Below, one piece after another: positions 7,501 to 55,567 of a DNA stretch of 64,000 nucleotides. Below the pieces are notes generated by a model. The model saw nothing but the letters and a program-made list of their open reading frames with translations. It did no database searches and was not told where the DNA came from. Source of the DNA: Eledone cirrhosa (taxonomy: Eukaryota). The position numbers were made by a program, and so were the translations under genes. How positions within the stretch are numbered: position 1 is the stretch's first letter; every line of letters begins with the position of its first letter. The stretch lies in contig OZ024754.1 in the NCBI GenBank assembly GCA_964016885.1, forward strand, positions 13,826,001 to 13,890,000, given 5' to 3'.

Positions 7501-9512
7501 TGTATCTTGAGTAAAATATCAATAATAAGCTGGATTATCATGATAGCAACGAGGAACCATGTGATCCACCAAGGTATGTAGTATCTGCCATAGTCTAGAC
7601 TGATCAGTAAAGTTGGAACTAGAAGAAGCGAAGTGGAAACACCAATGACAGTCTTAGAAAAACAACAGAGATTTAAAACAACAAAATAATAAAAAAATAT
7701 ACATAAAAATTTGAAAATACACCCAGCACACTCTGTAAAGTGGTAGTGTTGGTGCAATGATAAGATGCACCCAGCACACTCTGTAAAGTAGTAGAGCTGG
7801 TGTCATGATAGAATACACCCAGTACACTCTGAAAAGTGGTAGTGTTGGTGCAATGATAAGATGCACCCAGCACACTCTGTAAAGTAGTAGTGTTGGTGCC
7901 ATGATAGAATACACCCAGCACACCCTGTAAAGTAGTAGTGTTGGTGCCATGATAAGATGCACCCAGTACACTCTGTAAAGTGGTAGTGTTGGTCCCATGA
8001 TTAAATGCACCCAGCACACTCTGTAAAGTAGTAGAGCTGGTGCCATGATAGAATGCACCCAGCACACCCTGTAAAGTAGTAGTGTTGGTGCCATGATTAG
8101 ATGCACCCAGCACACTCTGTAAAGTGGTAGTGTTGGTGATACCATGATTAAATACACCCAGCACACTCTGTAAAGTGGTAGAGCTGGTGCCATGATAGAA
8201 TGCACCCAGCACACCCTGTAAAGTAGTAGTGTTGGTGCTACCATGATTAAATACACCCAGCACACTCTGTAAAGTGGTAGTGTTGGTGCCATGATTAAAT
8301 GCACCCAGCACACTCTGTAAAGTGGTAGTGTTGGTGCCATGATAAAATACACCCAGTCCCCCTGTAAAGTGGTAGTGCAAGTGCCATGACAAAATACATA
8401 TGGTCCACTCTGTAAAATAGTAGTGCTGATGCCACAAGCTGTACTCAGTCCACTCGGTAAATTGGTAATATTGGCACCATAATGTGCATCAACTTCACCA
8501 AGTAACGTGGTAGTGATGTCCAGATAAAATACACCCAGTCCATTCTATAAAGTGGGAAGACAGGTGCCATGATAAAATGCACCCAGTCCACTCTGTAAAT
8601 TGTGATGAGGGCAGTAAATAAATGCTACAAAGTATTTTGTCTGACGCTCTACTGATTCTACCAATATGCAGCCCTGATTAAGTAAGTGCAATAAATCATA
8701 AGTTAGTAAGAAACAACAATAATAAATACAGGACAATAATTGTTTCTACTTTTGGCACAAGGCCAGCAATTATCCCAGTGCTTCATTTTATCGACCCCGT
8801 AAGGATGAGAGGCAAAGTTAACCTCGGCGTGATCTGAACTCAGGCTGTAAGGGGCCGTAACTCTATACGCCAAAGCATTGCGTCCGACCCTCCAGCAATA
8901 CTGCCAATCCACCACCCTTGCTGACCAATAAAGAACAATAATTGTTTCTACTTTTGGCACAAGACCAGCAATTACCCAGTACATTACTGGTACTTTATTT
9001 TATCGACCCCCGTATGGATGAAAGGCAAAGTTAACCTCGGCAGGATTTGAACTCAGACCGTAAAGGGACAGAACTAATCTGGAAAGCATGGCGTCCAACC
9101 CTCTACCGATACTGCCAATTCACTGCCATAAAGAACAATAATGAATACAGAACACAGAAGGCAGTAACTAAATGCCACAAAGCATTTCGTCCGACACTCT
9201 ACCGATTCTGCCAAGCCACGGCTCTGATTAAGTGATTGCAACAACAAACAATAATACTCACTGGCCAAAATGAGAGTGACCAAACAGAGAATAAAACAGA
9301 TGACGTTGAAGATAAACTGAAGGCATCCATCTGTACAGCGAATCAACAACATTATTATCGGCTGAAAGAGAAAAAACAATGGAAAGTCGTCGTCTAATAG
9401 AAAATTCTTTCATGGTTTTTATCTGCATGAGTGGCTTGAATGGTTCTTTTTGTTTTCTGTCTTATTTCTGGCTTTTTTATGTTTTATATTGTTTTATGTT
9501 ATTTTATCTCTA

Positions 9513-21000: not shown

Positions 21001-24000
21001 ACATTTGAAAATTTTAAAGAAGTGAATGTTAAAATAAGCAATACTTTATATATAAGAATATTTATGTTTAATGAAGGGATTTGAAATTTAGTAGATAAAT
21101 TACATAATATTCATTCATTATTTATTCAAAGTAATCCAACTTATTTTACTAACGGGATAAAATAAATATAAAATGGACGCCGTCCCGCACTCCCCCTTTT
21201 ATTATATTATAGATTTAAGACGTGCTATGAATACATTCACTATATAAAGACATTACATAGTCATTACACTAAGACATAATACTATCAATACAGCCACTAT
21301 ATAAAGATATAGTGTCATTACACTATATTAAGACATAGTACTATCAATACAGCCACTATATAAAGATATAGTGTCATTACACTATATTAAGACATAGTAC
21401 TATCAATATAGCCACTATATAAAGATATAGTGTCATTACACTATATTAAGACATAGTACTATCAATACAGCCACTATATAAAGATATTATAGTGTCATTA
21501 CACTATATTAAGACATAGTACTATCAATACAGCCACTATATAAAGATATAGTGTCATTACACTATATTAAGACATAGTACTATCAATATAGCCACTATAT
21601 AAAGATATTATAGTGTCATTACACTATATTAAGACATAGTACTATCAATACAGCCACTATATAAAGATATTATAGTGTCATTACACTATATTAAGACATA
21701 GTACTATCAATATAGCCACTATATAAAGATATTATAGTGTCATTACACTATATTAAGACATAGTACTATCAATATAGCCACTATATAAAGATATAGTGTC
21801 ATTACACTATATTAAGACATAGTACTATCAATACAGCCACTATATAAAGATATAGTGTCATTACACTATATTAAGACATAGTACTATCAATACAGCCACT
21901 ATATAAAGATATAGTGCCATTACACTATATTAAGACATAGTACTATCAATATAGCCACTATATAAAGATATAGTGCCATTACACTATATTAAGACATAGT
22001 ACTATCAATACAGCCACTATATAAAGATATTATAGTGTCATTACACTATATTAAGACATAGTACTATCAATATAGCCACTATATAAAGATATTATAGTGT
22101 CATTACACTATATTAAGACAGTACTATCAATACAGCCACTATATAAAGATATTATAGTGTCATTACACTATATTAAGACATAGTACTATCAATATAGCCA
22201 CTATATAAAGATATTATAGTGTTTAGTATATAGGTAGAACATAATGAGGCAAAAACCATTGGAAAAAATGTAAGGGAAATAGAAAGACCATATCAAGACA
22301 GTGTGATCAAGAGATGGTAAAAATGTGACTACTTACCATGGGCTTTAGCAACTGGGTACCTTGAAATACCAGAGATGTCTTCTGTCTCACTCATGTCCAC
22401 TTCTTCTACTGATACTATTGGTACACGGCCAATACCAAGACCATGGATTGTTTTCTTACCTGGAATTTAAGAAGAAAGAGTCAACCAAACCATTACAGCT
22501 ATCATTACCACCTCAAACCTTAACCTCCACTCAACACCTCATGAAACCTTAAGCTCCATCCAACACCACATGAAAGCTCAACATACCATTCCAACCTCGA
22601 CCTCCATTCAACACCACATGAAACCTTAATCTCGACTCAACACCAGATGAAAGCTCAACTTAACATCCCAAGCTCAACCTCCAATCAATACCACATGAAA
22701 GCTCAACTTAACCATCCCAAGCTAAACCTGCACTCAACACCACATGAAAGCTCAACTTAACCATCTCAAGCTAAACCTCCACTCAACTCACCATCCGATG
22801 CTTTACCTCCTCTCTACACCACATGAAAGCTCAACTTAACCATCCCAAACTCAACCTCCATCCAACACCACATGAAAGCTCAACTTACCATCCCAAGCTA
22901 AACCTCCACCCAACACCACATGAAAGCTCAACTTACCATCCCAAGCTAAACCTCCACCCAACACCACATGAAAGCTCAACTTACCATCCCAAGCTTTGCC
23001 TCCACCCATCACCACATAAAAGCTCAACTTACCATCCCAAGCTTTACCTCCACCCAACACCACATGAAAGCTCAACTTACCATCCCAAGCTTTACCTCCA
23101 CCCAACACCACATGAAAGCTCAACTTACCATCCCAAGCTTTACCTCCACTCAACACCACAGGAAAGCTCAACTTACCATCCCAAGCTTTGCCTCCACCCA
23201 ACACCACATGAAAGCTCAACTTACCATCCCAAGCTTTGCCTCCACCCAACACCACATGAAAGCTCAACTTACCATCCCAAGCTTTGCCTCCACCTAACAC
23301 CACATGAAAGCTCAACTTACCATCCCAAGCTTTGCCTCCACCCAACACCACATGAAAGCTCAACTTACCATCCCAAGCTTTGCCTCCACCCAACACCACA
23401 TGAAAGCTCAACTTACCATCCCAAGCTTTGCCTCCACCCAACACCACATGAAAGCTCAACTTACCATCCCAAGCTTTGCCTCCACCCAACACCACATGAA
23501 AGCTCAACTTACCATCCCAAGCTTTGCCTCCACCCAACACCACATGAAAGCTCAACTTACCATCCCAAGCTTTGCCTCCACCCAACACCACATGAAAGCT
23601 CAACTTACCATCCCAAGCTTTGCCTCCACCCAACACCACATGAAAGCTCAACTTACCATCCCAAGCTTTGCCTCCACTCAACACCACATGAAAGCTCAAC
23701 TTACCATCCCAAGCTTTGCCTCCACTCAACACCACATGAAAGCTCAACTTACCATCCCAAGCTTTGCCTCCACCCAACACCACATGAAAGCTCAACTTAC
23801 CATCCCAAGCTTTGCCTCCACCCAACACCACATGAAAGCTCAACTTACCATCCCAACTTTGCCTCCACCCAACACCACATGAAAGCTCAACTTACCATCC
23901 CAAGCTTTGCCTCCACCCAACACCACATGAAAGCTCAACTTACCATCCCAAGCTTTGCCTCCACCCAACACCACATGCCATTTGCCTTCCTTCAACATAA

Positions 24001-27000
24001 AGTCATGTTGGTTGCCAGCACTTTTGTGGACCCGGAATCGGCATCGCAGGCGGTTGTTGTAGTGGGAACCAGTCTCATAGACTATTCCTTTCTTGGGCTG
24101 AGGGAAAGTGAGAGAAAAGAGAGAAGATGAAACAGAGGTGTGAGATAGGCTGTGATAGAGGAGTGGGAGAGAAGGAAGTAAGAGAGAGAAGAGTGGGAGA
24201 GAGGGAAGTAAGAGAGTGCAGAGTGGGAGAGAGGGAAGTAAGAGAGAGGGGAGTGGGAGAGAGGGAAGTAAGAGAGAGGGGAGAGAGGGAAGTAAGAGAG
24301 AGGGGAGTGGGAGAGAAGGAAGTAAGAGAGAGAAGAGTGGGAGAGAAGGAAGTAAGAGAGAGAAGAGTGGGAGAGAAGGAAGTAAGAGAGAGAAGAGTGG
24401 GAGAGAGGGAAGTAAGAGAGAGAAGAGTGGGAGAGAGGGAAGTAAGAGAGAGGGGAGTGGGAGAGAGGGAAGTAAGAGAGAGGGGAGTGGGAGAGAGGGA
24501 AGTAAGAGAGAGGGGAGAGAGGGAAGTAAGAGAGAGGGGAGTGGGAGAGAGGGAAGTAAGAGAGAGAGGAGTGGGAGGGAGGGAAGAGAGAGGAGTGGGA
24601 GAGAGGGAAGAGAGAGAGGAGTGGGAGAGAGGGAAGAGAGAGAGGAGTGGGAGGGAGGGAAGAGAGAGAGGAGTGGGAGAGAGAGGAGTGGGAGAGAGAG
24701 GAGTGGGAGGGAGGGAAGAGAGAGAGGAGTGGGAGAGAGGGAAGAGAGAGAGGAGTGGGAGAGAGGGAAGTAAGAGAGAGAGGAGAGGGAGAGTGAGGTA
24801 TCAGAGAGAGGGAGAGGATGAGAGCGAGGTGAGAGGGAGAGAGGGTGATATAAGAGAGAGGAGAGGAAAGGAAAGAGAATGAGGTATGAGAGGAAAGAGA
24901 GAGAGAGAGAGAGAGAATATGAGAGAGAAAGGATAGACATATAGGCAAGAGAAGAAGAGAGAGAAAATATGGAACAGAGGTAGGAGAAAGAGAATAAAGG
25001 GTGACTGGACAGACAGACAGACAGAAAGCCAGACAGACAGACAGACAGACAGACAGAAAGCTAGAGAGACAGACAGAGAGAAAGGCAGTGAGACAGACAG
25101 AAAGCTAGACAGACAGGGAGACAGGTAGATAACCAGACAGACAGTGAGTGAGTGAGTGAGTGAGAGAGAGAGTTGTACCTACCTCTGATAACTCAACAAT
25201 ATCATTCACTCCTCTAATGTAGGAGAGTGACACAGACACTATTCCATGTTTGAAATCTTCAATACAGTCAAAAGCATAGTCATCACCCTGGACAGAAATA
25301 TAGAAATATAATGGGATTAGATGTGTGTAAAGTAGTTAGTAGTAAATAATAGATATAATGGGATTAGATGTATGTAAAGTAGTTAGTAGTAAATAATAGA
25401 TATAATGGGATTAGATAAATGTAAAGTAGTTAGTAGTAAATAATAGATATAATGGGATTAGATGTATGTAAAGTAGTTAGTAGTAAATAATAGATATAAT
25501 GGGATTAGATGTGTGTAAAGTAGTTAGTAGTAAATAATAGATATAATGGGATTAGATAAATGTAAAGTAGTTAGTAGTAAATAATAGATATAATGGGATT
25601 AGATGTATGTAAAGTAGTTAGTAGTAAATAATAGATATAATGAGATTAGATGTATGTAAAGTAGTTAGTAGTAAATAATAGATATAATGAGATTAGATAT
25701 ATATAAAGTAGTTAGTAGTAAATAATAGATATAATGGGATTAGATATATGTAAAGTAGTTAGTAGTAAATAATAGATATAATGGGATTAGATATATGTAA
25801 AGTAGTTAGTAGTAAATAATAGATATAATGAGATTAGATATATATAAAGTAGTTAGTAGTAAATAATAGATATAATGAGATTAGATATATGTAAAGTAGT
25901 TAGTAGTAAATAATAGATATAATGAGATTAGATGTATGTAAAGTAGTTAGTAGTACATAATAGATATAATGGGATTAGATGTATGTAAAGTAGTTAGTAG
26001 TAAATAATAGATATAATGGGATTAGATATATGTAAAGTAGTTAGTAGTAAATAATAGATATAATGAGATTAGATGTATGTAAAGTAATTAGTAGTAAATA
26101 ATAGATATAATGGGATTAGATATATGTAAAGTAGTTAGTAGTAAATAATAGATATAATGGGATTAGATATATATAAAGTAGTTAGTAGTAAATAATAGAT
26201 ATGAGATTAGATATATGTAAAATAGTTAGTAGTAAATAATAGATATAATGAGATTAGATGTATGTAAAGTAATTAGTAGTAAATAATAGATATAATGGGA
26301 TTAGATATATGTAAAGTAGTTAGTAGTAAATAATAGATATAATGGGATTAGATATATGTAAAGTAGTTAGTAGTAAATAATAGATATAATGAGATTAGAT
26401 ATATATAAAGTAGTTAGTAGTAAATAATAGATATAATGAGATTAGATATATGTAAAGTAGTTAGTAGTAAATAATAGATATAATGAGATTAGATGTATGT
26501 AAAGTAGTTAGTAGTACATAATAGATATAATGGGATTAGATGTATGTAAAGTAGTTAGTAGTAAATAATAGATATAATGGGATTAGATATATGTAAAGTA
26601 GTTAGTAGTAAATAATAGATATAATGAGATTAGATGTATGTAAAGTAATTAGTAGTAAATAATAGATATAATGGGATTAGATATATGTAAAGTAGTTAGT
26701 AGTAAATAATAGATATAATGGGATTAGATATATATAAAGTAGTTAGTAGTAAATAATAGATATGAGATTAGATATATGTAAAATAGTTAGTAGTAAATAA
26801 TAGATATAATGAGATTAGATATATGTAAAGTAGTTAGTAGTAAATAATAGATATAATGAGATTAGATGTATGTAAAATAGTTAGTAGTACATAATAGATA
26901 TAATGGGATTAGATGTATGTAAAGTAGTTAGTAGTAAATAATAGATATAATGAGATTAGATATATATAAAGTAGTTAGTAGTAAATAATAGATATAATGG

Positions 27001-29395
27001 GATTAGATGTATGTAAAGTAGTTAGTAGTAAATAATAGATATAATGAGATTAGATGTATGTAAAATAGTTAACAGTAAATAATAGATGAATTAATTAGAA
27101 AAGAAACTGAAGAGAACAAACAGGCCAATGTTTAATCAGAGCTAGGGGTGGTGTGAATGGCTTGAGGAGTGTCAAATGTGAGACAGGTGAGTGAGTAGGT
27201 AGATAGGTGAGTAGGTGGGTAGGTAGGTAGGTGAGTAGGTGAGTAGGTGGGTAGGTGAGTAGGTAGGTAGGTGAGCAGGCGGGTGGGCGGGTAGGATGGA
27301 CAGGAGCCACAGCTCTACTTGTTAACAACAAAAGTTTCTTGACACATTAAATACAAGAAATATAAAAAGGTCAGGAGTTGTAGCTTCAGAGTTAATTTTA
27401 TTTTACTACCCTCATAAAAAGTGTGTGTGTGTGTGTGTGCGTGCGTGCGTGTGTGATGGTTGGTGGGAGTATAAAGCACATAGTGATATTTAAATAGAGC
27501 TCCTTCTTTACATTCTGAGTTTAAGTCTGGTCTGCAACATGACTTTTATTACCCCCAAAGCTCATATCTTCTATGAAATTAATACCAGAAACCATTATTT
27601 CATTATTTTCTAAAGACAAAATGGCAGAATTGTCAGAGTGCCAAACAAAATAACTTGTATTATTTAATTACACCTCATTACAAGCCAACAAGAGAGACCC
27701 CCAACTCCCCATCCCATCTCATGTGGTTCCTCGGCCTGTTAGAAATACCAATTAAATCTTCCCCTTAACTAATATCATCATGTATTAGGAAAACATTCTT
27801 GAAATATACAAAACAATACTATGATTGCATCACAAAAAATTGAAGTCTTTACTTTAACCCATTAGCATTTAAACTGGCCATATCTGGCCAGAATTCCCTC
27901 ACCTCTTTCTGTACAAACTGGCTGTAACTAGCCACTCATACTGATCTTAAGATATTGTTCTCAAAATAAACAATATCAAAATCTCATAGATTCGATATGT
28001 GAAATAATTATGTGAGGTAAAGCCTTTACCATGAAAATACAATAGTAAATATAGAGTAATGTAAATACTAAAGGGTTAATACTGCAAATGTTCACAACAA
28101 TCTAACCTCAAGTAAAGACATCTGAATTAACAGATCACATGAAATCATATTAAATATTAAAGGTGTCTATAAGCTATAGAGGTGGCTCAGTTGGGGAGGA
28201 AGTAAGGTGTGGTGGCACAGTTGGGGAGAAAGTGAGGTGTGGTGGCACAGTTGGGGAGAAAGTGAGGTGTGGTGGCACTATTGGGGAGGAAGTAAGGTGT
28301 AGTGGCACAATTGGGGAGGAAGTAAGGTGTAGTGGCACAGTTGGGGAGGAAGTAAGGTGTAGTGGCACAGTTGGGGAGAAAGTAAGGTGTAGTGGCACAG
28401 TTGGGGAGAAAGTAAGGTGTGGATGCACAGTTGGGGAGGAAGTAAGGTGTGGTGGCACAGTTGGGGAGGAAGTAAGGTGTGGATGCACAGTTGGGGACGA
28501 AGTAAGGTGTGGTGGCACAGTTGGGGAGGAAGTAAGGTGTGGTGGCACAGTTGGGGAGGAAGTAAGGTGTGGATGCACAGTTGGGGACGAAGTAAGGTGT
28601 GGGGGCAAGTGAGGAGTGCCTGTATACCTAATAACTTGTAGTAGCACTATTGGGGAGGAAGTAAAAATAATGTACTGAGTGTGTAGACACACAGATGGTG
28701 TATACAACACATGGGAGTGTATAGAGTCAGTGCAGGGAAATACATGTGTATACAACACATGGGAGTGTATAGAGTCAGTGCAGGGAAATACATGTGTATA
28801 CAACACATGGGAGTGTATAGAGTCAGTGCAGGGAAATACATGTGTATACAACACATGGGAGTGTATAGAGTCAGTGCAGGGAAATACATGTGTATACAAC
28901 ACATGGGAGTGTATAGAGTCAGTGCAGGGAAATACATGTGTATACAACACATGGGAGTGTATAGAGTCAGTGCAGGGAAATACATGTGTATAAACAAAAC
29001 CTTTTGTTTGTATCTTTGTTACTTTAAAACCACAAATTCAGGGTTTCACAAACTAACTTACACATTCACCTGTGTGAACATGTATCTTCTTTTAGTCAAA
29101 GCTGAAGATCATAAATGTGTATGTGTTTATATATGACACGTGTCTGAGTGGTTAGAGAATTGGATTTGTAATCGTGAGGTTGTGATCTTGATTCCGAGAC
29201 CGGGCGATGCGTTGAGATTCCGAGACCTTGAGCAAGACACTTTATTTCACTTTGCTCCTTCTGCCTGGATTTGCGACCGACAGATAGTGTTAGCAATTGG
29301 AAAGACCAATGGAAAAATTGTTTCCTTGGTCTGATTTGACAAGCTCCACCCCACTCATTAAGCGAATGAGCTCTGGGATCTTGTCGATCGACTGT

Positions 29396-29787: not shown

Positions 29788-32700
29788 AGTGTTATCTGGA
29801 TTGAGATCTTGCCTACCTACACCTCTCTAAGACAATGACACTGGATCGAGATCTTTGGCGCCATGCAGTTGTACAGAAGACCCGACTGCCATTGCATACA
29901 AACCTAGTCAGTAAGCACCTCTTAACCCAATGTACACCTCCACCGCGCACACCCTACCACATCCCCCCTTTCCCGTTCCATCCACTGTGTCGATGACACA
30001 ACACTCCACACTGTAAGGTGGTCGTGTAGGAGACACGGTAAAAAGGCTCTCAGTCCACACTGTAAATGTGGTTGGTGTTACGAAGGACATCCAGATGTAA
30101 AAAAACTTGCCAGAGACACTTCCGTACGAGCGAGACATGGCCTCCCGACCATTCCTGCATCAAATGGAACAAAACCGTCTAACCCATGCTAGTGTGGAAG
30201 ATGTACGTTAAACGATGATGATATATATATATATATATCTTTATTTTACATCCATTTTCACATTGCCTTGGGTTATACATCTCATCATCACTGTTTAACA
30301 TCTATTTTCCATGTTTGTAAGAGTTAGACAAGTTGTCACTCTATGAGGCTAAACAGCTCAGGTGTCCCCATCTGATCATTTGGTTTCATTCTCTATAGCA
30401 GGGAGCCCTTTCTAATGCCAACCACATTATAACGTGTATTGGGAGCTTTTTTCTTGACACCACCACTACCGCTTTACAGAGAGGACCAGGCACTTTTTCT
30501 TGAGGCGCTAGTATGACCACTTTACAGTGTCGACTGAGTGTTTCTTGTCATGGAACCAGTATGACCACTTTACAAAGTGGAATGGGTGATTTGGGGGTGG
30601 TACCAATACGATCACCTAACGGTGGACTGAGTGCTTTTTTTTTTGTTGTGACATCTCACACACACACACAATGAACTTACGCACAATTTCCAAGTAACAA
30701 ATTCTTTCCTATCGCAGTGGTCTGTCTGAGATCATACACACACACACTCACACATATATCTATCATCATCATCATCATCCCCGTTTAGCGTCCATTTTTC
30801 CATGCTTGTTTGAGTTAGACAGGTCGTCCACGTCAGGAGACAAGTCTGGCCAGAAGTGGCCACGCCGTACCTTGCTCCAACGAGGACTGTAAATTTGTCT
30901 GGGGATTTAACAGCTGGGTGCCCTTCCTAACACCAACCACATTTACAGTGTGGAATCATTATCATCATCGACTAACGTCTATCTTCCTCTTCCATGCTAG
31001 CATGGGTTAGATGGGTCCCATTTAGAGGCAAGTTAAGTCGGGTGACCTTGTCTCGCTCATATAGGGGTATTTCTGGCTTGTTTTCTACGGCTGGAAGCCC
31101 CTCCTAATGCCAGCCACATTGATAGTGTGGGCTGGGTGCTTTTTGCTGTGTCTTTTACATGTCCACTTTACAGTGTGTGCTGGGTGATTTTTGCTGTGTC
31201 TTTTACATGTCCACTTTACAGTGTGGTCTGGGTGCTTTTTGCTGTGTCTTTTACATGTCCACTTTACAGTGTGTGCTGGGTGCTTTTTGCTGTGTCTTTT
31301 ACATGTCCACTTTACAGTGTGTGCTGGGTGCTTTTTGCTGTGTCTTTTACACGTCCATTTTACAGTGTGTGCTGGGTGCTTTTTGCTGTCTTTTACATGT
31401 CCACTTTACAGTGTGGTCTGGGTGCTTTTTGCTGTCTTTTACATGTCCACTTTACAGTGTGGTCTGGGTGCTTTTTGCTGTCTTTTACATGTCCACTTTA
31501 CAGTGTGTGCTGGGTGCTTTTTGCTGTGCCTTTTACATGTCCACTTTACAGTGTGGTCTGGGTGCTTTTTGCTGTGTCTTTTACATGTCCACTTTACAGT
31601 GTATGCTGGGTGCTTTTTGCTGTGTCTTTTACATGTCCACTTTACAATGTGTGCTGGGTGCTTTTTTAGTGTGTCTTTTACATGTCCACTTTACAGTGTG
31701 TGCTGGGTGCTTTTTGCTGTCTTTTACATGTCCACTTTACAGTGTGTGCTGGGTGCTTTTTGCTGTGTCTTTTACATGTCCACTTTACAGTGTGTGCTGG
31801 GTGCTTTTTGCTGTGTCTTTTACGTGTCCACTTTACAGTGTGTGCTGGGTGCTTTTTGCTGTGTCTTTTACATGTCCACTTTACAGTGTGTGCTGGGTGC
31901 TTTTTGCTGTCTTTTACATGTCTACTTTACAGTGTGGTCTGGGTGCTTTTTGCTGTGTCTTTTACACATCCATTTTACAGTGTGTGCTAGGTGCTTTTTG
32001 CTGTCTTTTACATGTCCACTTTACAGTGTGGTCTGGGTGCTTTTTGCTGTCTTTTACATGTCCACTTTACAGTGTGTGCTGGGTGCTTTTTGCTGTGTCT
32101 TTTACGTGTCCACTTTACAGTGTGTGCTGGGTGCTTTTTGCTGTGTCTTTTACATGTCCACTTTACAGTGTGTGCTGGGTGCTTTTTGCTGTCTTTTACA
32201 TGTCTACTTTACAGTGTGGTCTGGGTGCTTTTTGCTGTGTCTTTTACACGTCCATTTTACAGCGTGTGCTAGGTGCTTTTTGCTGTCTTTTACATGTCCA
32301 CTTTACAGTGTGGTCTGGGTGCTTTTTGCTGTCTTTTACATGTCCACTTTACAGTGTGTGCTGGGTGCTTTTTGCTGTGTCTTTTACGTGTCCACTTTAC
32401 AGTGTGTGCTGGGTGCTTTTTGCTGTGTCTTTTACATGTCCACTTTACAGTGTGTGCTGGGTGCTTTTTTAGTGTGTCTTTTACATGTCCACTTTACAGT
32501 GTGTGCTGGGTGCTTTTTGCTGTCTTTTACATGTCCACTTTACAGTGTGTGCTGGGTGCTTTTTGCTGTGTCTTTTACATGTCCACTTTACAGTGTGTGC
32601 TGGGTGCTTTTTGCTGTGTCTTTTACGTGTCCACTTTACAGTGTGTGCTGGGTGCTTTTTGCTGTGTCTTTTACATGTCCACTTTACAGTGTGTGCTGGG

Positions 32701-35700
32701 TGCTTTTTGCTGTGTCTTTTACATGTCCACTTTAAGAATATAGTAGAGGAAAGAAGATGATAGGAGATTTAGCAGAGAACTAGAAAATAAAGGAAAAGAG
32801 GAAGGTGTAACAAGCTGGACATGTTAAACAGTATGTAGAAACATTGACCTGAAGTAAACAACTGTTGAAGTATTCACCTACCTCATAAGTATCATCTGAC
32901 AGAGCAAATGTCATCCAGACATTATGGATCAAACCAGTAGCCATACTCATCTCTACCTCCACAACATTGTCAATGGACTTCCATGTAACAATATACTTGC
33001 AGTTCAATTCCCAGCATCCTACTGGCTCCCGGTAGCAACCCCTTGTCTTACCACAGTCAGCTGTGTTAATCTGTTTGGTTAAGGGCACAATATTCTGAAA
33101 CAGATCAAAAATTGGGGGAGGTCAACCCCACCAAATAATCAGTGAAATAAATATATTAATTTGACAGATGTGTAAATACATTTAATTATCATCATCGTTT
33201 TACATCTGTTTTTACATCTGTTTTTACATGCTGACGTGGTTTGGATGGAAATTTTAATTCTGGTGGCGCTCACCACTCTCCAGGATTGAACACAGCTGAT
33301 TTCTTCCAGAGAAGGAAGGAGACAGACAGAGAGAGAGAGAGAGAGAGAGAGGAAGTGAGAAAGAGATATAGGGGGAGAATAGACCCCCAGTACTTGACTG
33401 GTACTTTATTTATTGACCTCCAAAAGATGAAAGGCAGGATTTGAAAGCCAATTCACCGTCTTACAGAGTGTAGTGGCTGTATCTTATCATGGCATCAGCA
33501 CCAAAGAGGTTGTCATGTCCTTCGTTATTAGTTTCTCTATTCAACTCTCGCTAAAGCATCACTTTGCCTTTCATGTTTCTAAGGGATTGATTAAATAAGT
33601 ACTAACAAAAAACTAGAGCCAATTCAGTCATCCACAATTCTTCCTGAAAATCTGGACTATTATTAGTGGTAAAACTACTGAAGAAGGAAAATAACAGGAT
33701 CGTCATGGCTGGACTTCTTTTGACCATATTTCTCCTTTATTCAGGCTGATCTGGAGCTAGACAACAACAAACAGGTTGTATGAAAACAAATAAAATAAAA
33801 CTATACCAAGTTAATCAGAAGAAATAAAGTTACTTACTTCTTGAGGTACTGGAGGCATAGGCAGTCCTTTAGTGTAGTCAATAACTGTTGCTGACCGTTC
33901 TCGAACCCAGAATGTTTTGAAGTTTTTAGAAACGGTAAAGCTACACAATAGATAGACAAAATTCATATAGAAAAAAAAAAAAAATCAACATTCATTTAAT
34001 TGCTTGATTTTAAAGTATTATGACATTAAAATGCTTTGTCTATATTGTCCAAAAATTACATTCAACTCATCTTATTGGAGTTATCTTCCCTCGCTTGTTT
34101 TTAGATTTTAAAACATTCCGAGAAGGGGTTTTTTTTTTTAGTAAATGATTTGATAAACTTAGTCAATAAAAGTTTCTTAACTCACTATATTACATATGTT
34201 AGACTCTACTCTATCTCTATTTAATATATAGCACTAAGCCCACCCTGTATGCTAATCCAGTACCACAACATGCTGGTGACACAACAAAAAGCACCCAGTA
34301 AGGTGGTTGTGCTGGTAACATGACAAAAAGCACCGTCTACTCTGTAAGGTGGTCGTATTGGTGACAAAATAGAAAGCACCCAGTCCACACTGTAACGTGG
34401 TTGGCATTAGGAAGAATATCAAGCTATAGAAACCACGCCAAAATACAGATCTGTATGGGCATAGCGTGGTCTCCAGACCTGACTTGTCTCATAACAGGAC
34501 AACCTGTCTAACCCATGTAAATGTGGAAAATGAACATTAAATGATGATGATGATGATGATGATGACGACAAATTGGCAGAGTCAGAGCGTTAGATTAACC
34601 CTTTAGTATTTAAACCGGCCAGAATTCACTCACCTCTATCTCTTCAAAACAGCCGTAGCCGGCCACTTATACTGATGTTAAAGTATTGTTCTCAAAATAA
34701 ATAATATCAAAATCTCATACATTTGATATTATGTGAGATAATTATGTGAAGTAAAGCCTTTACTGTAAAAATACAATAGTATATATAGAGTAATGTAAAT
34801 GCTAAAGGGTTAAAAATGCTTCACTAAATTTGTTTCAGCTCATTGCATTCTGAGTTCAAATCCCAATGAGGTCAACTTTGCCTTTCGTCCTTTCGAGGTT
34901 GATTCTAATACAGGGATTGAATGTTCTTCCTATCCCTCTTTCTTTCAATGGATGAGCTCCAACAGGTTTAAAAAGCCCAAGACATGCTAAATATCATGAT
35001 GGCGCCTCTAAAACTCTATCAACATCATTTTTATGGCCATTTTCCATGCTAACATGGGTTGGACGGGCAGGTTTGAGTCAATGCTTTACAGCTGGATACC
35101 ATTCCTGACTCCAACCCATTTAGTCATTTCTTAAGATATGCAGGGATACAGTATGCCCATTCTAAACCCCTGTCAAGGTAAAAAGTCGCAGTACTTACAG
35201 AAAATAGATATGCCCTACATATTGCTTCACTCTCCAAAAAAATGAAATATTGGATAGGGGTTCATTGTTGACTTTGACATAACCAGCCTGAAATAGAAAG
35301 ACCAGCTAATGATAGGACCATGAAATAGCTACCCTGAAATAGAAAGACCAGCAAATGACAAGACTTTGACATAGCTGCTCTGAAATAGAACGACCAGTAA
35401 ATAATGGGATGTATTGAAAATAATAAAAAGCTACTTACACCAGCTGCTTCTTTGCAATTTGGGATCATGACTTGTCGCTCACCACCCAAGAATGTACCTT
35501 GAGGCCCATTATCATTACCGGATAGTTTCCTCGCTTGAATCTGGAAGTCTTGAAATTCACTGCCATCTGTAGACATCACAGTCACTGAAAAAATAATGGT
35601 TATATTTATATTAGTGGACCAGTTCCGTCTATAATAACATTAGCATCAATTTTTTGGGTCCAGGACTTGCATGTCATATATACCAGGACTAGAGTACCAT

Positions 35701-37371
35701 TCCTGTCAATAATGATGTTAATAGCATTAATAGTTGGAGCTCAAGATTGTTATGTCATATATACACAACCGTCACGCAGTAATACAGAAGAGCCGACCCC
35801 CCACGGGTACAAGCCGAAGCTGAAGCATATAGACAATATGCCCCCACACCCTCCACTGCAAAGTGGCCGTGGAGGTGCCATGGCAAAAAAGCACCCAGCC
35901 CACACTGCAAAGTGGACGTGTAGGCGCCATGGAAGACAAGCACCCAGCCCACACTGTAAATGAGGTTGGTGTTAGGAAGGGCATCCAGCTGTAGAAATCA
36001 AGCCAGAATCAGTTCCCGTATGAGCAAGGTATGGTCAGCCGACCGGACACTGCCCACAACAGGACAACCCGTCTAACCATGCTAGCGTGGAAGTATGGAC
36101 ATAAAACGGTGATGATGATGATGATACCAAGACTAATGGATCTAACTGGACAGACAGATAGATAAATAACCAGAGAGACAGAGAGCTAGATAGATAGAGA
36201 GTTAGATAATTAGATATAGAGAGTTAGATAACTAGATATAGAGAGTTAGATAACTAGATATAGAGAGTTAGATAACTAGATAGATAGAAAGTTAGATAAT
36301 TAGATATAGAGAGTTAGATAACTAGATATAGAGAGTTAGATAACTAGATAGATAGAGAGTTAGATAATTAGATAGATAGAGAGTTAGATAATTAGATAGA
36401 GAGTTAGATAACTAGATATAGAGAGTTAGATAACTAGATAGAGAGATAGTTAGATAGATAGAGAGTTAGATAATTAGATAGAGAGTTAGATAACTAGATA
36501 TAGAGAGTTAGATAACTAGATAGAGAGAGAGAGTTAGATAACTAGATAGAGAGAGAGTTAGATAACTAGATAGAGAGAGTTAGATAACTAGATAGAGAGA
36601 GTTAGATAACTAGATATATAGAGAGTTAGATAACTAGATATATAGAGAGTTAGATAACTAGATAGAGAGAGTTAGATAACTAGATAGAGAGAGAGTTAGA
36701 TAACTAGATAGAGAGAGAGTTAGATAACTAGATAGAGAGAGAGAGAGTTAGATAACTAGATATAGAGAGAGAGTTAGATAACTAGATATAGAGAGAGAGT
36801 TAGATAACTAGATATAGAGAGAGAGTTAGATAACTAGATATATAGAGAGAGTTAGATAACTAGATATATAGAGAGTTAGATAACTAGATATAGAGAGAGT
36901 TAGATAACTAGATAGAGAGAGAGTTAGCTAACTAGATATATAGAGAGTTAGATAACTAGATATAGAGAGAGTTAGATAACTAGATATAGAGAGTTAGATA
37001 ACTAGATATATAGTGAGAGTTAGATCACTAGATAGATAGAGAGTTAGATAACTAGATATATAGTGAGAGTTAGATCACTAGATAAAGCACACAGTTAAAT
37101 AACTAGACAGCTAGCTAACACAATTGACAGATAGATATATATAAAGAGATAGATACCAAAAATATTTTTTTTAATGTTTCATCTTATTACCTTTCAATGG
37201 AGCATTTGGTCTATAGAATTTTTCAGAAACCTGGACTTTGAATGGTGATGCTCCTTTCTGTGGAGTAAGTCCTGAAGATATTGGCATCATGGAACCACAA
37301 TTAATGTCAACGGAAAGGGTTGATCCAGTAAAGAGGAACAACAAAAGGATACTGGTAACCATTGGATACAT
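1493..37371 (-). CDS. FRRS1: Ferric-chelate reductase 1 (FRRS1/SDR2)-like gene, 15 coding exons, 598 aa: signal peptide-Reeler-DOMON-cytochrome b561-TM
   Basis: Manual exon assembly: join(complement) 37191-37371, 35439-35584, 35199-35287, 33838-33940, 32882-33094, 25183-25287, 23944-24097, 22337-22459, 19173-19288, 14224-14310, 12499-12567, 9262-9361, 7472-7618, 5383-5453, 1493-1585. All introns GT-AG, phases compatible, 1797 nt, no internal stop. Motifs FQIQAR/TFW (Reeler), CGKTRGC..W.FALS.D..GDD..DC (DOMON), KAH..LM..AW (b561), GRRFKK + TM. The symbol denotes family; it is probably a divergent paralog. Confidence 0.9.
1660..1867. mobile_element. Tigger/pogo-like MITE interrupted by a short RTE-type tail (about 1738-1785)
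   Basis: TA|CAGTGAAATTC ... GAATTTTACCTG|TA termini; related copies at 19321-19470 and about 47208-47366. Confidence 0.6.
2437..3030. repeat. (GAT/GGT)n trinucleotide microsatellite
   Basis: Imperfect ATG/GTG repeat; source of the poly-His/Ile/Met pseudo-ORFs. Confidence 0.95.
3295..3965 (-). mobile_element. RTE-tail retroposon copy with internal ~47-bp tandem expansion (about 3485-3880)
   Basis: Shares ggatgcccttcc..caccaacc..tttacagtg with the SINE/RTE tails; homologous to 53502-53843. Confidence 0.65.
4406..4878. repeat. 49-bp minisatellite, about 9.5 copies
   Basis: unit tactgttcacacctgtgtagggttagctggcctccagtgagggtcatgt. Confidence 0.95.
5383..5453 (-). CDS. FRRS1: FRRS1-like exon 14 (hydrophilic loop)
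   Basis: tttattgcag|(D)RREKYEYAKRENPKMYIPEPHPV|gtaagt; phase 1 to 0. Confidence 0.85.
5472..7140. repeat. 20-bp minisatellite, about 83 copies
   Basis: unit ccagtgtcaataagttggta, starting about 18 nt from the exon 14 acceptor. Confidence 0.97.
7472..7618 (-). CDS. FRRS1: FRRS1-like exon 13
   Basis: cttcttctag|(I)PTLLISLDYGRYYIPWWITWFLVAIMIIQLIIDILLKIHDFCYYEKNE G|gtaaat. Confidence 0.85.
7716..8600. repeat. 48-bp minisatellite derived from retroposon tail
   Basis: unit approx. cacccagcacactctgtaaagtggtagtgttggtgccatgataagatg, decaying rightwards. Confidence 0.9.
8737..9125 (-). mobile_element. Two tandem tRNA-derived SINEs (family B)
   Basis: Minus strand: GAGTTCAAATCC B-box, gcctttcatccttacggggtcgataaaataaagtaccag central block (resembles Meta/MESC-type SINE core), AAT-rich tail. 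Confidence 0.75.
9262..9361 (-). CDS. FRRS1: FRRS1-like exon 12 (b561 TM)
   Basis: ctctttcag|PIIMLLIRCTDGCLQFIFNVICFILCLVTLILA A|gtgagt; phase 0 to 1. Confidence 0.85.
10210..12402. repeat. Compound 11/12-bp satellite (CTGAGGTTAGA / CTGAGGTATTGG)
   Basis: About 2.2 kb of two interspersed unit variants. Confidence 0.97.
12499..12567 (-). CDS. FRRS1: FRRS1-like exon 11 (b561, third His)
   Basis: atttgcag|APYLPLKAHPIMLIIVFVCVLII|gtaagt; 69 nt. Confidence 0.88.
12633..13233 (-). mobile_element. Three head-to-tail family B SINEs separated by the same 15-bp sequence
   Basis: atatagacaaataat at 12618, 12823, 13023, 13234. Confidence 0.8.
13779..14000 (+). mobile_element. piggyBac-like MITE (about 220 bp)
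   Basis: TTAA|CCCTTTA ... TAAAGGG|TTAA; four copies in window. Confidence 0.8.
14224..14310 (-). CDS. FRRS1: FRRS1-like exon 10 (b561 TM)
   Basis: atctctag|VYWTCMVSVFILMILAFILFFVDAGGYVE|gtaagt; 87 nt. Confidence 0.88.
14466..15338. repeat. Cluster of fold-back (palindromic) repeats embedded in (TA)n
   Basis: Inverted arms about 14466-14495/14550-14581, 14591-14668/14702-14780, 15066-15116/15200-15249. Confidence 0.8.
15339..15676 (-). mobile_element. tRNA-derived CORE-like SINE with RTE-type tail (family A)
   Basis: A-box TGGCTTAGTGG, B-box GAGTTCAATTC, CCTTGAGCAAGACACTT core-like block, (GAT)n tail. Confidence 0.85.
15771..16394. repeat. About 225-bp inverted repeat (15771-15993 / 16172-16394), probably Penelope-like pLTR
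   Basis: Near-identical reverse-complement arms (ORFs 15700-15912 and 16253-16474 share sequence); lies next to the PLE endonuclease fragment. Confidence 0.75.
16626..16832 (-). mobile_element. Penelope-like element GIY-YIG endonuclease C-terminal fragment
   Basis: YTIQWKVL...PY....CGLCIEER...LNIRYDFYKRCPHTSKYLL matches the WxIL..Y..CxLCxxEK..LNxR..CxH pattern of PLE ORF ends. Confidence 0.7.
17265..17549 (+). mobile_element. Mariner transposase 3' fragment with right TIR
   Basis: YSPDLAPADFFLFLKMK motif; terminal ggaaactttttgactttccctcg. Confidence 0.85.
18082..18362. repeat. 40-bp minisatellite, 7 copies
   Basis: unit ctccacaccaccaccattttatcaaagatgccctaaccat. Confidence 0.95.
19173..19288 (-). 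CDS. FRRS1: FRRS1-like exon 9 (b561)
   Basis: tttttcag|(V)ILMILAWIFCAPIGCLMSMYYKRMWPNSRFLDKRYWFV|gtaagt. Confidence 0.9.
19321..19470. mobile_element. Tigger/pogo-like MITE
   Basis: TA|CAGTGAAATTCC ... GGAATTTTACCTG|TA; about 30 nt from the exon 9 acceptor. Confidence 0.65.
20138..21213 (-). mobile_element. Non-autonomous Helitron (family H1) with nested RTE fragment
   Basis: A|TCTATAATATAATAAAA 5' end, 3' hairpin ending CTAA|T; homologous to 61450-62119. Confidence 0.75.
20229..20717 (-). mobile_element. 5'-truncated RTE-clade LINE fragment
   Basis: Homologous to 41513-42029 (RWYGHVMRM..GRPRKTW); (GAT)n tail. Confidence 0.85.
22337..22459 (-). CDS. FRRS1: FRRS1-like exon 8 (DOMON His ligand; first b561 His)
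   Basis: aattccag|(G)KKTIHGLGIGRVPIVS...RYPVAKAH G|gtaagt; 123 nt, phase 1-1. Confidence 0.9.
22500..23977. repeat. 48-bp minisatellite made of the exon 7 end plus 5' splice site; fills intron 7
   Basis: Minus unit CATGTGGTGTTGGGTGGAGGCAAAGCTTGGGATG|GTAAGTTGAGCTTT; homogeneous 22870-23977, degenerate 22500-22870. Confidence 0.97.
23944..24097 (-). CDS. FRRS1: FRRS1-like exon 7 (DOMON)
   Basis: tttccctcag|PKKGIVYETGSHYNNRLRCRFRVHK...WHVVLGGGKAWD G|gtaagt. The 3' end is ambiguous because the donor is tandemly repeated. Confidence 0.85.
24130..24965. repeat. Purine/pyrimidine-biased compound repeat (polypyrimidine on the gene strand)
   Basis: gagtgggagagagggaagtaagagag units and GA runs. Confidence 0.9.
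25183..25287 (-). CDS. FRRS1: FRRS1-like exon 6 (DOMON)
   Basis: ttctgtccag|GDDYAFDCIEDFKHGIVSVSLSYIRGVNDIVELSE|gtaggt; 105 nt. Confidence 0.9.
25300..27085. repeat. 47-bp minisatellite, about 38 copies, TACTAAC in nearly every unit on the gene strand
   Basis: plus unit aatgggattagatgtatgtaaagtagttagtagtaaataatagatat. Confidence 0.97.
27858..28075 (-). mobile_element. piggyBac-like MITE
   Basis: TTAA|CCC...GGG|TTAA; homologous to 13779-14000. Confidence 0.8.
28180..28605. repeat. 30-bp G-rich minisatellite
   Basis: unit ttggggaggaagtaaggtgtggtggcacag. Confidence 0.95.
28698..28992. repeat. 48-bp minisatellite, 6 near-perfect copies
   Basis: unit gtgtatacaacacatgggagtgtatagagtcagtgcagggaaatacat. 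Confidence 0.95.
29437..29618 (-). mobile_element. RTE LINE 3' fragment
   Basis: GRRSRGRPRKTWAEVVRADLRSLKL..WRDAVLNRTRP; (GAT)n tail. Confidence 0.85.
31130..32733. repeat. 47-49-bp minisatellite grown from a retroposon tail
   Basis: unit ctgggtgctttttgctgtgtcttttacatgtccactttacagtgtgtg, contiguous with the tail copy at 30960-31130. Confidence 0.93.
32882..33094 (-). CDS. FRRS1: FRRS1-like exon 5 (DOMON N-part)
   Basis: tgtttcag|NIVPLTKQINTADCGKTRGCYREPVGC...VWMTFALSDDTYE|gtaggt; 213 nt, phase 0-0. Confidence 0.9.
33838..33940 (-). CDS. FRRS1: FRRS1-like exon 4 (end of Reeler, linker)
   Basis: tgtgtag|(L)FTVSKNFKTFWVRERSATVIDYTKGLPMPPVPQE|gtaagt; phase 2 to 0. Confidence 0.9.
34599..34809 (-). 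mobile_element. piggyBac-like MITE
   Basis: TTAA|CCCTTTAG...CTAAAGGG|TTAA. Confidence 0.8.
35199..35287 (-). CDS. FRRS1: FRRS1-like exon 3 (Reeler)
   Basis: tatttcag|AGYVKVNNEPLSNISFFWRVKQYVGHIYF|gtaagt; phase 0 to 2. Confidence 0.85.
35439..35584 (-). CDS. FRRS1: FRRS1-like exon 2 (Reeler)
   Basis: ttttttcag|..VTVMSTDGSEFQDFQIQARKLSG..CKEAAG|gtaagt; phase 1 to 0. Confidence 0.9.
36170..37085. repeat. GATA-related ~20-26-bp repeat (gagagttagataactagata)
   Basis: Variable-length units, ending about 100 nt from the exon 1 donor. Confidence 0.9.
37191..37371 (-). CDS. FRRS1: FRRS1-like coding exon 1 (signal peptide, start of Reeler)
   Basis: GCCACC-ATG at 37371; MYPMVTSILLLFLFTGSTLSVDINCGSMMP...APLK; donor AAG|gtaata. 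An upstream acceptor tctcttctacag (exon start 37438) implies a further 5' UTR exon. Confidence 0.9.
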
Positions 37372-38855: not shown

Positions 38856-38929
38856 TATAATATCATTTCTGCTAGCAGGGAAAATGGATGTTAAATAATG
38901 ATGATGAAGCTATTGACACAATAAAATCC

Positions 38930-40998
38930 TTGCAGTCCACACTGTAAAGTGGTAGTGCTGGTGCCATGACAAAATGTACTCATCCCACACTGTAAAGTTG
39001 TAGTGCTGGTGTCACAATAAAATGCCCCCAGTACACACTGTATAGTGGTAGTGTTGGTGTCACAATAAAATGCTCCCAGTATACACTGTATAGTGGTAGT
39101 GCTGGTGCCACAATAAAATGCTCCCAGTACACACTGTATAGTGATAGTGCTGGTGTCACAATAAAATGCTCCCAGTACACACTGTATAGTGGTAGTGCTG
39201 GTGCCACAATAAAATGCTCCCAGTACACACTGTATAGTGGTAGTGCTGGTGCCACAATAAAATGCTCCCAATACACACTGTATAGTGGTAGTGCTGGTGT
39301 CACAATAAAATGCTCCCAGTACACACTGTATAGTGGTAGTGCTGGTGTCACAATAAAATGCTCCCAGTACACACTGTATAGTGGTAGTACTGGTGCCACA
39401 ATAAAATGCTCCCAGTACACACTGTATAGTGGTAGTGCTGGTGCCACAATAAAATGCTCCCAATACACACTGTATAGTGGTAGTGCTGGTGTCACAATAA
39501 AATGCTCCCAGTACACACTGTATAGTGGTAGTGCTGGTGTCACAATAAAATGCTCCCAGTACACACTGTATAGTGGTAGTGCTGGTGCCACAATAAAATG
39601 CCCCCAGTACACACTGTATAGTGGTAGTGCTGGTGTCACAATAAAATGCTCCCAGTACACACTGTATAGTGGTAGTGCTGGTGCCACAATAAAATGCTCC
39701 CAGTACACACTGTATAGTGATAGTGCTGGTGTCACAATAAAATGCTCCCAGTACACACTGTATAGTGGTAGTGCTGGTGCCACAATAAAATGCTCCCAGT
39801 ACACACTGTATAGTGGTAGTGCTGGTGCCACAATAAAATGCTCCCAATACACACTGTATAGTGGTAGTGCTGGTGTCACAATAAAATGCTCCCAGTACAC
39901 ACTGTATAGTGGTAGTGCTGGTGTCACAATAAAATGCTCCCAGTACACACTGTATAGTGGTAGTACTGGTGCCACAATAAAATGCTCCCAGTACACACTG
40001 TATAGTGGTAGTGCTGGTGCCACAATAAAATGCTCCCAATACACACTGTATAGTGGTAGTGCTGGTGTCACAATAAAATGCTCCCAGTACACACTGTATA
40101 GTGGTAGTGCTGGTGTCACAATAAAATGCTCCCAGTACACACTGTATAGTGGTAGTGCTGGTGCCACAATAAAATGCTCCAAGTACACACTGTATAGTGG
40201 TAGTGCTGGTGCCACAATAAAATGCTCCCAGTACACACTGTATAGTGGTAGTGCTGGTGCCACAATAAAATGCTCCAAGTACACACTGTATAGTGGTAGT
40301 GCTGGTGCCACAATAAAATGCTCCCAGTACACACTGTATAGTGGTAGTGCTGGTGCCACAATAAAATGCTCCCAGTACACACTGTATAGTGGTAGTGCTG
40401 GTGCCACAATAAAATGCTCCCAATACACACTGTATAGTGGTAGTGCTGGTGTCACAATAAAATGCTCCCAGTACACACTGTATAGTGGTAGTGCTGGTGT
40501 CACAATAAAATGCTCCCAGTACACACTGTATAGTGGTAGTACTGGTGCCACAATAAAATGCTCCCAGTACACACTGTATAGTGGTAGTGCTGGTGCCACA
40601 ATAAAATGCACCCAATACACACTGTATAGTGGTAGTGCTGGTGTCACAATAAAATGCTCCCAGTACACACTGTATAGTGGTAGTGCTGGTGTCACAATAA
40701 AATGCTCCCAGTACACACTGTATAGTGGTAGTGCTGGTGCCACAATAAAATGCTCCAAGTACACACTGTATAGTGGTAGTGCTGGTGCCACAATAAAATG
40801 CTCCCAGTACACACTGTATAGTGGTAGTGCTGGTGCCACAATAAAATGCTCCAAGTACACACTGTATAGTGGTAGTGCTGGTGCCACAATAAAATGCTCC
40901 CAGTACACACTGTATAGTGGTAGTGCTGGTGCCACAATAAAATGCTCCCAGTACACACTGTATAGTGGTAGTGCTGGTGCCACAATAAAATGCTCCAA
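38930..40998. repeat. 48-bp minisatellite, about 43 copies, retroposon-tail derived
   Basis: unit gtgccacaataaaatgctcccagtacacactgtatagtggtagtgctg; source of the 574/672 aa pseudo-ORFs. Confidence 0.97.
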
Positions 40999-54710: not shown

Positions 54711-55567
54711 TATAAGACAATGTCACTGGATTGAGACTTTTGGCGCTACGCAGTAATACAGAAGACCCCAACTTCCCTTACGTAAAAAGTTAAACCTACA
54801 GTCAGTAGGCCCCTCTTAACCAAATATACACCCCACCCTACTACCCCTACTCCATCCTCCCACTTCCACCCACACCACCCTCACTCTGTAAAGTTATGTT
54901 GGTACCACAGAACATCCAGTCCACACTGTAAAGTGGTCGTGTAGGCGACACAACAAAAAGCACCCAGTCCACGCTGAAAAGTAGTCGTGTAGGAGTCACA
55001 GTGAAAAGGCTCCCAGTCCACACTGTAAATGTGGTTGGTGTTAGGAAGGGCATCCAGCCGTAAAAAACCTGTCAGATGCAGTCCTATACGAGCGAGACAC
55101 GGTCACCTGATCAATCTTACCTCAAGTGGGACAATCCCGTCTAGCGTGGAAGATGGACATTAAATGATATATATATATTGTAATCCACCTGGTTGTGGTG
55201 GGGCTGATAACTTTGTTAGAACTCAATATGCCCTTGAGGATGGCAGATTGAACAGGGTTTTGAGACTAGAAATAGGTAGTAACTTAACCATTACCATGCT
55301 GGTTGATATATTGATCTCCAGTGATCAATCAACCCTCTGAAACGATCGTAAAATGATGAACTAACTCTCTACCTACACCTGACTTCTGTTTTTTTTTATT
55401 ATTCTATGCACAAACACATATATGTATGTATGTATGTATATATATATATATGTATACACACGTCAACATACATACCTACATCAGCACACATCTCTACCCA
55501 CATATAAACACAATGACATACGTAAACACACATGCTCTATGGTGCAACACAAAAAAATATATGTGTA

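What the first reader, a model, noticed from the sequence alone, without database searches (positions are those of the whole stretch)
25288..27085. About 38 tandem TACTAAC branch points in a 1.8 kb AG-free zone before exon 6
Seen: on the gene strand nearly every 47-bp unit (..atttacTACTAACtactttacatacatCTAATcccatt..) carries the perfect branch consensus plus a second CTAAT. The plus-strand unit has no CT, so the transcript has no AG across the array. The array ends about 12 nt from the acceptor; the nearest candidate branch As are about 29 and 48 nt upstream. Known: UACUAAC is the optimal U2/SF1 site and an ACUAAY STAR/QKI motif, and AG-exclusion zones allow distant branch points. Inference: amplified branch site giving multiple lariats or an RNA-binding-protein sponge.
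Basis: partly seen in the sequence, partly recalled or inferred. Interest (0 to 1): 0.7.

Follow-up and report, generated by a model that had tools for sequence, protein, structure and literature searches.

The report
Octopus intron minisatellite repeating branch motif
A 47-base piece at the end of an octopus intron, carrying a perfect branch-point motif, stands in 38 tandem copies; it is likely a harmless duplication of the intron's own end, and the one transcript seen joins the neighbouring exons normally.

Summary
A 47-bp minisatellite (38 units; 34 TACTAAC, 3 TACTAAT, 1 TGTTAAC) gives a 1,819-nt AG-free zone ending 18 nt before coding exon 6 of an octopod FRRS1-like gene. A spliced contig joins exons 5-6-7 at this acceptor, and DNA contig depth fits a real array.

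The functional reading is not supported. The 38 copies are one event: a shuffled unit holds TACTAAC 2-6% of the time, and the consensus unit has no G, so it cannot hold AG. Inner copies lack a polypyrimidine tract, and the motif is no better kept than the rest of the unit.

The same gene has tandem amplifications of a donor (exon 7), an acceptor (exon 3) and another acceptor-proximal stretch (exon 14); 40% of the window is tandem repeat. Best reading: local duplication of the intron's own 3' end, tolerated because any branch still leads to the same first AG. It is the branch-side counterpart of the F7 intron-7 donor VNTR.

Open: 37 of 38 units are bipartite QKI-type sites on unstructured RNA before an in-frame exon, so tissue-specific repression is untested, not excluded.

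The parts
25306..27085 (-). 47-bp minisatellite, 38 units (36 of 47 bp, 2 of 44 bp); 34 TACTAAC, 3 TACTAAT, 1 TGTTAAC; each unit also has CTAAT
27039..27085 (-). 5'-most unit, 89% identical to the consensus, TGTTAAC in place of TACTAAC; either the ancestral seed or a decayed edge unit
25335..25341 (-). last TACTAAC; candidate branch A at 25336 (-49)
25316..25320 (-). last CTAAT; candidate branch A at 25317 (-30), in the usual distance range and likely the main branch point (inferred)
25288..25305 (-). 18-nt unique tail: pyrimidine tract and acceptor CAG; an imperfect direct repeat of the array's 5' junction
   Evidence: junction in spliced contig
25183..25287 (-). coding exon 6 (105 nt, phase 0/0, 35 aa of the DOMON-like region) of an FRRS1-like gene
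27107..27108 (-). first AG upstream of the array (acceptor-like context, no evidence of use); 5' limit of the AG-free zone
32882..33094 (-). coding exon 5; its donor opens the 7,594-nt intron 5 that holds the array
23944..24097 (-). coding exon 7, joined to exon 6 in the spliced contig

Best explanation
This is an intronic 47-bp minisatellite directly upstream of the exon 6 acceptor, likely made by tandem duplication of the intron's own branch-point region and likely tolerated rather than selected, because it would leave the mRNA unchanged. Steps: (1, inferred) a 47-bp stretch between two imperfect direct repeats was duplicated by slippage or microhomology. (2, pattern shown, mechanism inferred) it grew by block duplications typical of unequal exchange. 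(3, shown) the unit has no G, so the whole array lacks AG. (4, inferred) the spliceosome branches in the last unit (-30, perhaps -49), next to the only pyrimidine tract, and any rarer upstream branch would scan to the same first AG. (5, shown in one contig) exons 5, 6 and 7 are joined at the expected sites.
For: Spliced contig of run X4 ends on exon 6 and continues into exon 5 and exon 7 sequence. An 11-unit block of variant types recurs at units 7 and 19; mean pairwise identity 94.9%. The 5' junction resembles the terminal tract: 307 of 20,000 shuffles and 7 of 1,282 unmasked sense 26-mers score as well. Longest pyrimidine run inside the array is 4 nt, while distal branch points need an adjacent tract and U2AF2 (PMC1431707, PMC5378181; passages). 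The same gene has 23 tandem donor copies at exon 7, a 46-bp duplication over the exon 3 acceptor and an 82-copy 20-mer ending at the same distance from exon 14. TRF masks 39.8% of the window. The heptamer is not better kept than the rest of the unit (3 of 7 against 7 of 40 positions vary). No similar unit elsewhere in the window (best outside blastn E 0.023, an AT run).
Against: A perfect TACTAAC is uncommon: 1 of 14 acceptors of the gene has it within -70..-10, and composition predicts 0.068 such arrays among 16 against 1 seen in a consensus. 37 of 38 units are complete bipartite QKI-type sites on RNA with no predicted structure. If the TGTTAAC edge unit is the ancestor, the perfect motif arose inside the array and swept it; that fits turnover but also selection. 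No orthologous intron was obtained, so the seed is not shown. One contig cannot exclude minor or tissue-specific skipping.
Confidence: 0.75

Rival explanations
1. The array is a multivalent landing pad for a STAR protein (QKI/HOW type) that competes with SF1 at the branch region and represses the in-frame exon 6 in some tissues, with copy number tuning the effect.
For: 37 of 38 units match ACUAAY followed within 20 nt by UAAY. The last 253 nt fold to 0 kcal/mol. Exon 6 is 105 nt, phase 0/0, so skipping keeps the frame. In mammals tandem ACUAAC elements at -34/-43 of RAI14 exon 11 bind QKI and block SF1 (PMC13004596; abstract, passages, Discussion).
Against: The only transcript contig laid includes exon 6 (1 contig of 1 run). 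The exon is present in the 5 named octopod proteins and in P0007. The array looks young and its motif is not better conserved. Lack of structure follows from lack of G: 200 of 200 shuffles fold at least as well. A QKI ortholog in this animal was not checked (no genome).
Confidence: 0.12
2. Many units act as real branch points, giving a ladder of lariats in 47-nt steps that all resolve to the same acceptor and may slow removal of intron 5.
For: Perfect U2-complementary heptamer (consensus as stated in PMC13004596) in 34 units and no AG to intercept scanning. About 8% of human branch points lie over 60 nt from the AG, and distal ones go with delayed splicing (PMC5378181, passages).
Against: Characterised distal branch points lie 100-400 nt upstream with an adjacent tract (PMC1431707, passages). 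Here inner units lack a tract and most lie beyond 400 nt. A good candidate sits at -30. These rules come from mammals; no cephalopod lariat data were found or examined.
Confidence: 0.1
3. The array is an assembly artefact or is much shorter in the animal.
For: Long tandem arrays are often mis-sized in assemblies (general knowledge). Run X1 may be the source of the window, so it is not independent.
Against: In X1 a 35-nt contig over the unit has depth 212 against 5.4 and 8.7 for flank-bearing contigs (ratio 24-39), and that 31-mer has 23 exact copies in the window. Both junction contigs match the window. Units carry 13 distinct variant types.
Confidence: 0.03

Closest known systems
Human F7 intron 7 (IVS7) 37-bp VNTR (PMC1557585; abstract and outline read)
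   Same: A minisatellite that has amplified a native splice signal into many identical copies; by the abstract the extra copies are functional but normally silent.
   Different: F7 repeats a 5' splice site and the most upstream copy wins. Here the branch-point region is repeated, and the copy nearest the acceptor is the one predicted to be used. The exon 7 donor array of this same gene is the direct F7 analogue.
AG-exclusion-zone / distant-branch-point exons (Gooding 2006, PMC1431707; passages read)
   Same: Very long AG-free zone before an acceptor. The paper itself lists a 369-nt zone caused by an AG-lacking repeat, with a normal branch point at -17 and a 31-nt zone in mouse.
   Different: True distant-branch exons have the branch point and an adjacent tract at the 5' end of the zone and no good proximal site. 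Here the 5' unit has the worst motif, no inner tract exists and a good site lies at -30. The zone (1,819 nt) exceeds the 1,126-nt example in the passages read.
RAI14 intron 10 dual ACUAAC branch site, QKI versus SF1 (PMC13004596; abstract, passages and Discussion read)
   Same: Tandem ACUAAY elements near a 3' splice site, forming bipartite STAR-protein sites before an exon.
   Different: Two elements in mammals with shown binding and skipping. Here 37 repeat-borne sites in a mollusc, no binding or skipping shown, and only the included form seen.
Splicing-associated tandem repeats (spl-TRs), e.g. NARS2 (PMC10078293; passages read)
   Same: Tandem repeat next to an acceptor. In that paper's in-silico test, repeats that contain a branch motif and no AG restored predicted splicing, which is the tolerance rule proposed here.
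   Different: The NARS2 repeat lies between branch site and AG and harms splicing as it grows. This unit brings its own branch motif, so growth leaves the proximal spacing unchanged. No length-splicing association was tested here.

Membership tests
Minisatellite / VNTR | Head-to-tail units of 10-100 bp with interspersed variant types | tested here: met
   47-bp period, 38 copies, 13 variant types, repeated 11-unit block
Minisatellite / VNTR | Copy number varies between individuals | not testable with these tools
   RAD-seq run X6 laid 0 reads on the stretch; contigs do not span the array
Distant-branch-point (AGEZ) exon | Extended AG-free zone before the acceptor | tested here: met
   1,819 nt
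Distant-branch-point (AGEZ) exon | Branch motif with adjacent polypyrimidine tract near the 5' end of the zone, no good proximal site | tested here: not met
   5' unit has TGTTAAC; longest inner pyrimidine run 4 nt; candidates at -30 and -49
Distant-branch-point (AGEZ) exon | Mapped lariat at the distant site | not testable with these tools
   No raw RNA reads among the 8 runs listed
QKI/STAR-repressed exon with tandem ACUAA branch sites | Bipartite ACUAAY plus UAAY within about 20 nt near the 3' splice site | tested here: met
   37 of 38 units, including the last; motif definition as in PMC13004596 Discussion
QKI/STAR-repressed exon with tandem ACUAA branch sites | Exon is skipped in some tissues | tested here: inconclusive
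   1 contig of 1 run shows inclusion; contigs drop rare forms, and the stretch laid could not show a skip joint
QKI/STAR-repressed exon with tandem ACUAA branch sites | Direct QKI/HOW binding that excludes SF1 | not testable with these tools
   Needs CLIP or pull-down

The most novel reading that the evidence does not exclude
A minisatellite built from a branch point has become a copy-number dial on splicing: 37 bipartite QKI/HOW sites on naked single-stranded RNA outcompete SF1 and switch off an in-frame exon by tissue. It is one of a genome-wide octopod class of acceptor-abutting, AG-free, branch-bearing arrays grown from splice signals.
Probability: 0.1. Interest if true: 0.75.

Novelty: new variant of a known kind. 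Interest (0 to 1): 0.27.

Why it matters
If neutral, it is a tidy natural example of which repeats an intron end can tolerate: AG-free, bringing their own branch motif, and sparing the last 18 nt. It is also a ready-made substrate for asking how the spliceosome chooses among 34 identical perfect branch motifs, as the F7 VNTR was for donor choice. One gene shows donor, acceptor and branch-side amplifications together. If STAR-protein repression were real, it would be a repeat-encoded, tunable splicing switch in a cephalopod. An array of branch-point motifs before an acceptor was not found in the searches, which cover only the held open-access library.

Tried and rejected
No whole genome is held, so the genome-wide strand test could not be run; it was run on the 16 arrays inside this gene only.

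The orthologous intron was sought in two ways without success. Organism B's run X5 gave only two unrelated 19-24-nt pieces. The metagenome scan gave 22 pattern hits, 0 confirmed.

No RNA holder was listed by record. X4 is treated as transcript-derived only because its contig is spliced. RAD-seq run X6 laid 0 reads, which is no test.

Earlier-findings look-ups returned nothing. Paper searches returned 0 papers; others returned nothing relevant by their listings.

Rejected: counting 44 sense against 2 antisense TACTAAC in the gene as enrichment, since 43 of 44 come from two arrays. Rejected: treating the absence of AG-creating mutations as selection; 16 of 141 possible substitutions would make AG and only about 10 distinct substitutions are seen, so there is no power. 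Rejected: RNA structure as a role. Rejected: a dispersed repeat family as the source within the window. Recursive splicing at the upstream AG is unlikely, as it is followed by TT, not GT. No supplements were read.

Full report
OBSERVATION. The region is a 47-bp tandem array of 38 copies at 25306-27087, with 95% matches. On the minus strand 34 of 38 units contain TACTAAC, 3 TACTAAT and the 5'-most TGTTAAC; every unit also has CTAAT. The sense strand has no AG from 27108 to the acceptor at 25289, 1,819 nt, the longest such stretch on either strand. The last unit is followed by an 18-nt unique tail ending in CAG, and candidate branch As fall at -30 and -49.

GENE CONTEXT. The exon after the array (25287-25183, 35 aa) matches putative ferric-chelate reductase 1 of Octopus sinensis and Argonauta hians. 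tblastn of these proteins places 15 coding exons on the minus strand between about 37383 and 1500, and this is the sixth. The proteins carry Reeler and, below Pfam's cut-off, DOMON matches. The window is therefore octopod DNA (inference). A 2,227-nt contig of run X4 covers the exon and continues with exon 5 on one side and exon 7 on the other (checked against window letters). The acceptor is thus used, and the array is removed with the 7,594-nt intron 5. This is one contig; contigs drop rare forms.

IS THE ARRAY REAL? In DNA-like run X1, which may be the window's source, a 35-nt contig on the unit has depth 212, against 5.4 and 8.7 for flank-bearing contigs. The 31-mer concerned has 23 exact copies in the window, and both junctions match. 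Depth is a rough guide only, but it fits.

IS IT MORE THAN CHANCE? The copies descend from one unit, so the sample size is one. Shuffled units hold TACTAAC in 2.1% or 5.8% of trials and CTAAY in 33-36%. The array has 4 G on the sense strand, so AG absence needs no further cause. Among the 16 arrays inside the gene, composition predicts 5.5 AG-free ones and 6 are seen. Their placement is uneven: 3 of 3 arrays ending within 60 nt of an acceptor are AG-free against 3 of 13 others (Fisher p = 0.036; thresholds chosen after seeing the table). Inheritance from an intron end and removal of AG-bearing duplications both predict this; neither requires function. Against pure chance, composition predicts only 0.068 TACTAAC-bearing arrays among the 16, and 1 of 14 acceptors has the perfect motif nearby. 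The motif is mildly unusual and best explained by its position.

ORIGIN AND GROWTH. The sequence at the array's 5' junction resembles the terminal tract; 307 of 20,000 shuffles and 7 of 1,282 control 26-mers align as well. That suggests a duplication seeded by imperfect direct repeats (inference). Units fall into 13 variant types with 94.9% mean identity, and an 11-unit block recurs 12 units later, as expected from unequal exchange (general knowledge). The heptamer varies at 3 of 7 positions, 2 of them only in the edge unit, against 7 of 40 elsewhere, so there is no sign of special conservation. The edge unit's TGTTAAC matches the terminal tract better than the consensus does (score 10.5 against 9.0). 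The perfect motif may therefore have arisen within the array; without an outgroup this is unresolved.

THE SAME PROCESS ELSEWHERE IN THE GENE. A 48-bp array repeats the end of exon 7 with its donor 23 times. A 46-bp duplication repeats the exon 3 acceptor. A 20-bp, 82-copy array with 68 TTGAC and 9 TACTAAC ends at the same distance from exon 14 as this array does from exon 6. TRF masks 39.8% of the window. Local duplication appears to copy whatever lies there, splice signals included (inference).

MECHANISM. Established mammalian rules, taken from passages: distant branch points lie 100-400 nt upstream, have an adjacent pyrimidine tract, and the first AG downstream is chosen by scanning (PMC1431707). 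Distal sites coincide with U2AF2 binding (PMC5378181). Inner units here have no pyrimidine run above 4 nt, so branching is predicted in the last unit. Because no AG intervenes, any branch would give the same mRNA. Gooding et al. describe a 369-nt zone caused by an AG-lacking repeat with an ordinary branch point. The F7 IVS7 VNTR shows that amplified splice signals can stay silent (PMC1557585, abstract). Extending these rules to a mollusc is an assumption.

WHAT KEEPS A FUNCTIONAL READING ALIVE. 37 of 38 units match ACUAAY plus UAAY within 20 nt, the last 253 nt have no predicted structure, and exon 6 is frame-preserving. In mammals two tandem ACUAAC elements let QKI exclude SF1 and cause skipping (PMC13004596). 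Nothing here shows binding or skipping. The exon is present in the 5 named octopod proteins and in P0007; among the 14 homologues compared the others gave no significant blastp match to this short exon, though the alignment shows the region in P0008, P0010, P0012 and P0014. I put STAR repression at about 0.12 and substantial distal branching at 0.10.

LIMITS. There was no genome, no orthologous intron, no raw RNA reads and no earlier notes. Paper searches cover only the held library. Five papers were opened: abstract and outline for PMC1557585; passages for PMC10078293, PMC1431707 and PMC5378181; abstract, passages and Discussion for PMC13004596. No supplements were read.

VERDICT. A real and striking-looking, but most likely neutral, minisatellite made from an intron's branch region. 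It is a new variant of the splice-signal VNTR kind. Interest 0.27.

Noticed in passing
window 22782-23977 (-), decayed copies to about 22510: 48-bp array made of the last codons of exon 7 plus its donor: 23 copies of GATG|GTAAGT. The second donor is in frame (+16 codons); a 1-nt loss shifts the rest. Direct analogue of the F7 IVS7 VNTR. Which donor is used was not seen.
   Followed up: partly
window 5472-7110 (-): 20-bp, 82-copy, almost AG-free array ending at the same distance from the exon 14 acceptor as the main array from exon 6; about one TTGAC per unit and 9 TACTAAC variants.
   Followed up: partly
window 35287-35402 (-): 46-bp, 2.5-copy duplication across the exon 3 acceptor, leaving three TCTATTTCAG acceptor-like ends in the short intron 2; alternative acceptor use not tested.
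   Followed up: no
whole window: Unit lengths of 46-49 bp recur in unrelated arrays: 7 of 20 hand-grouped repeat families, binomial p about 6e-4 against a flat 20-70 bp range (grouping and range chosen after the fact). It suggests a preferred duplication length in this genome; the octopus minisatellite searches listed nothing on it.
   Followed up: partly
window 3485-3859, 7714-8599, 31124-32734, 35854-35960, 38917-40996, 54916-55035: Six 47-49-bp arrays share one sequence family, probably grown from a dispersed SINE-like element (label recalled, not tested).
   Followed up: no
exons 5/6, 9/10 and 12 of the gene; alignment A1: Octopod FRRS1-like proteins have E in place of the M before 'GxD' in the DOMON region and lack two histidines (WFVAH, WFH) kept in snail and bivalve homologues. 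These are recalled as haem ligands, so the octopod protein may not be an active reductase.
   Followed up: partly
window 24157-24845 (-): CT-rich 30-bp array gives an 855-nt AG-free pyrimidine stretch ending about 55 nt before exon 7, with one AG at 24151 in between.
   Followed up: no
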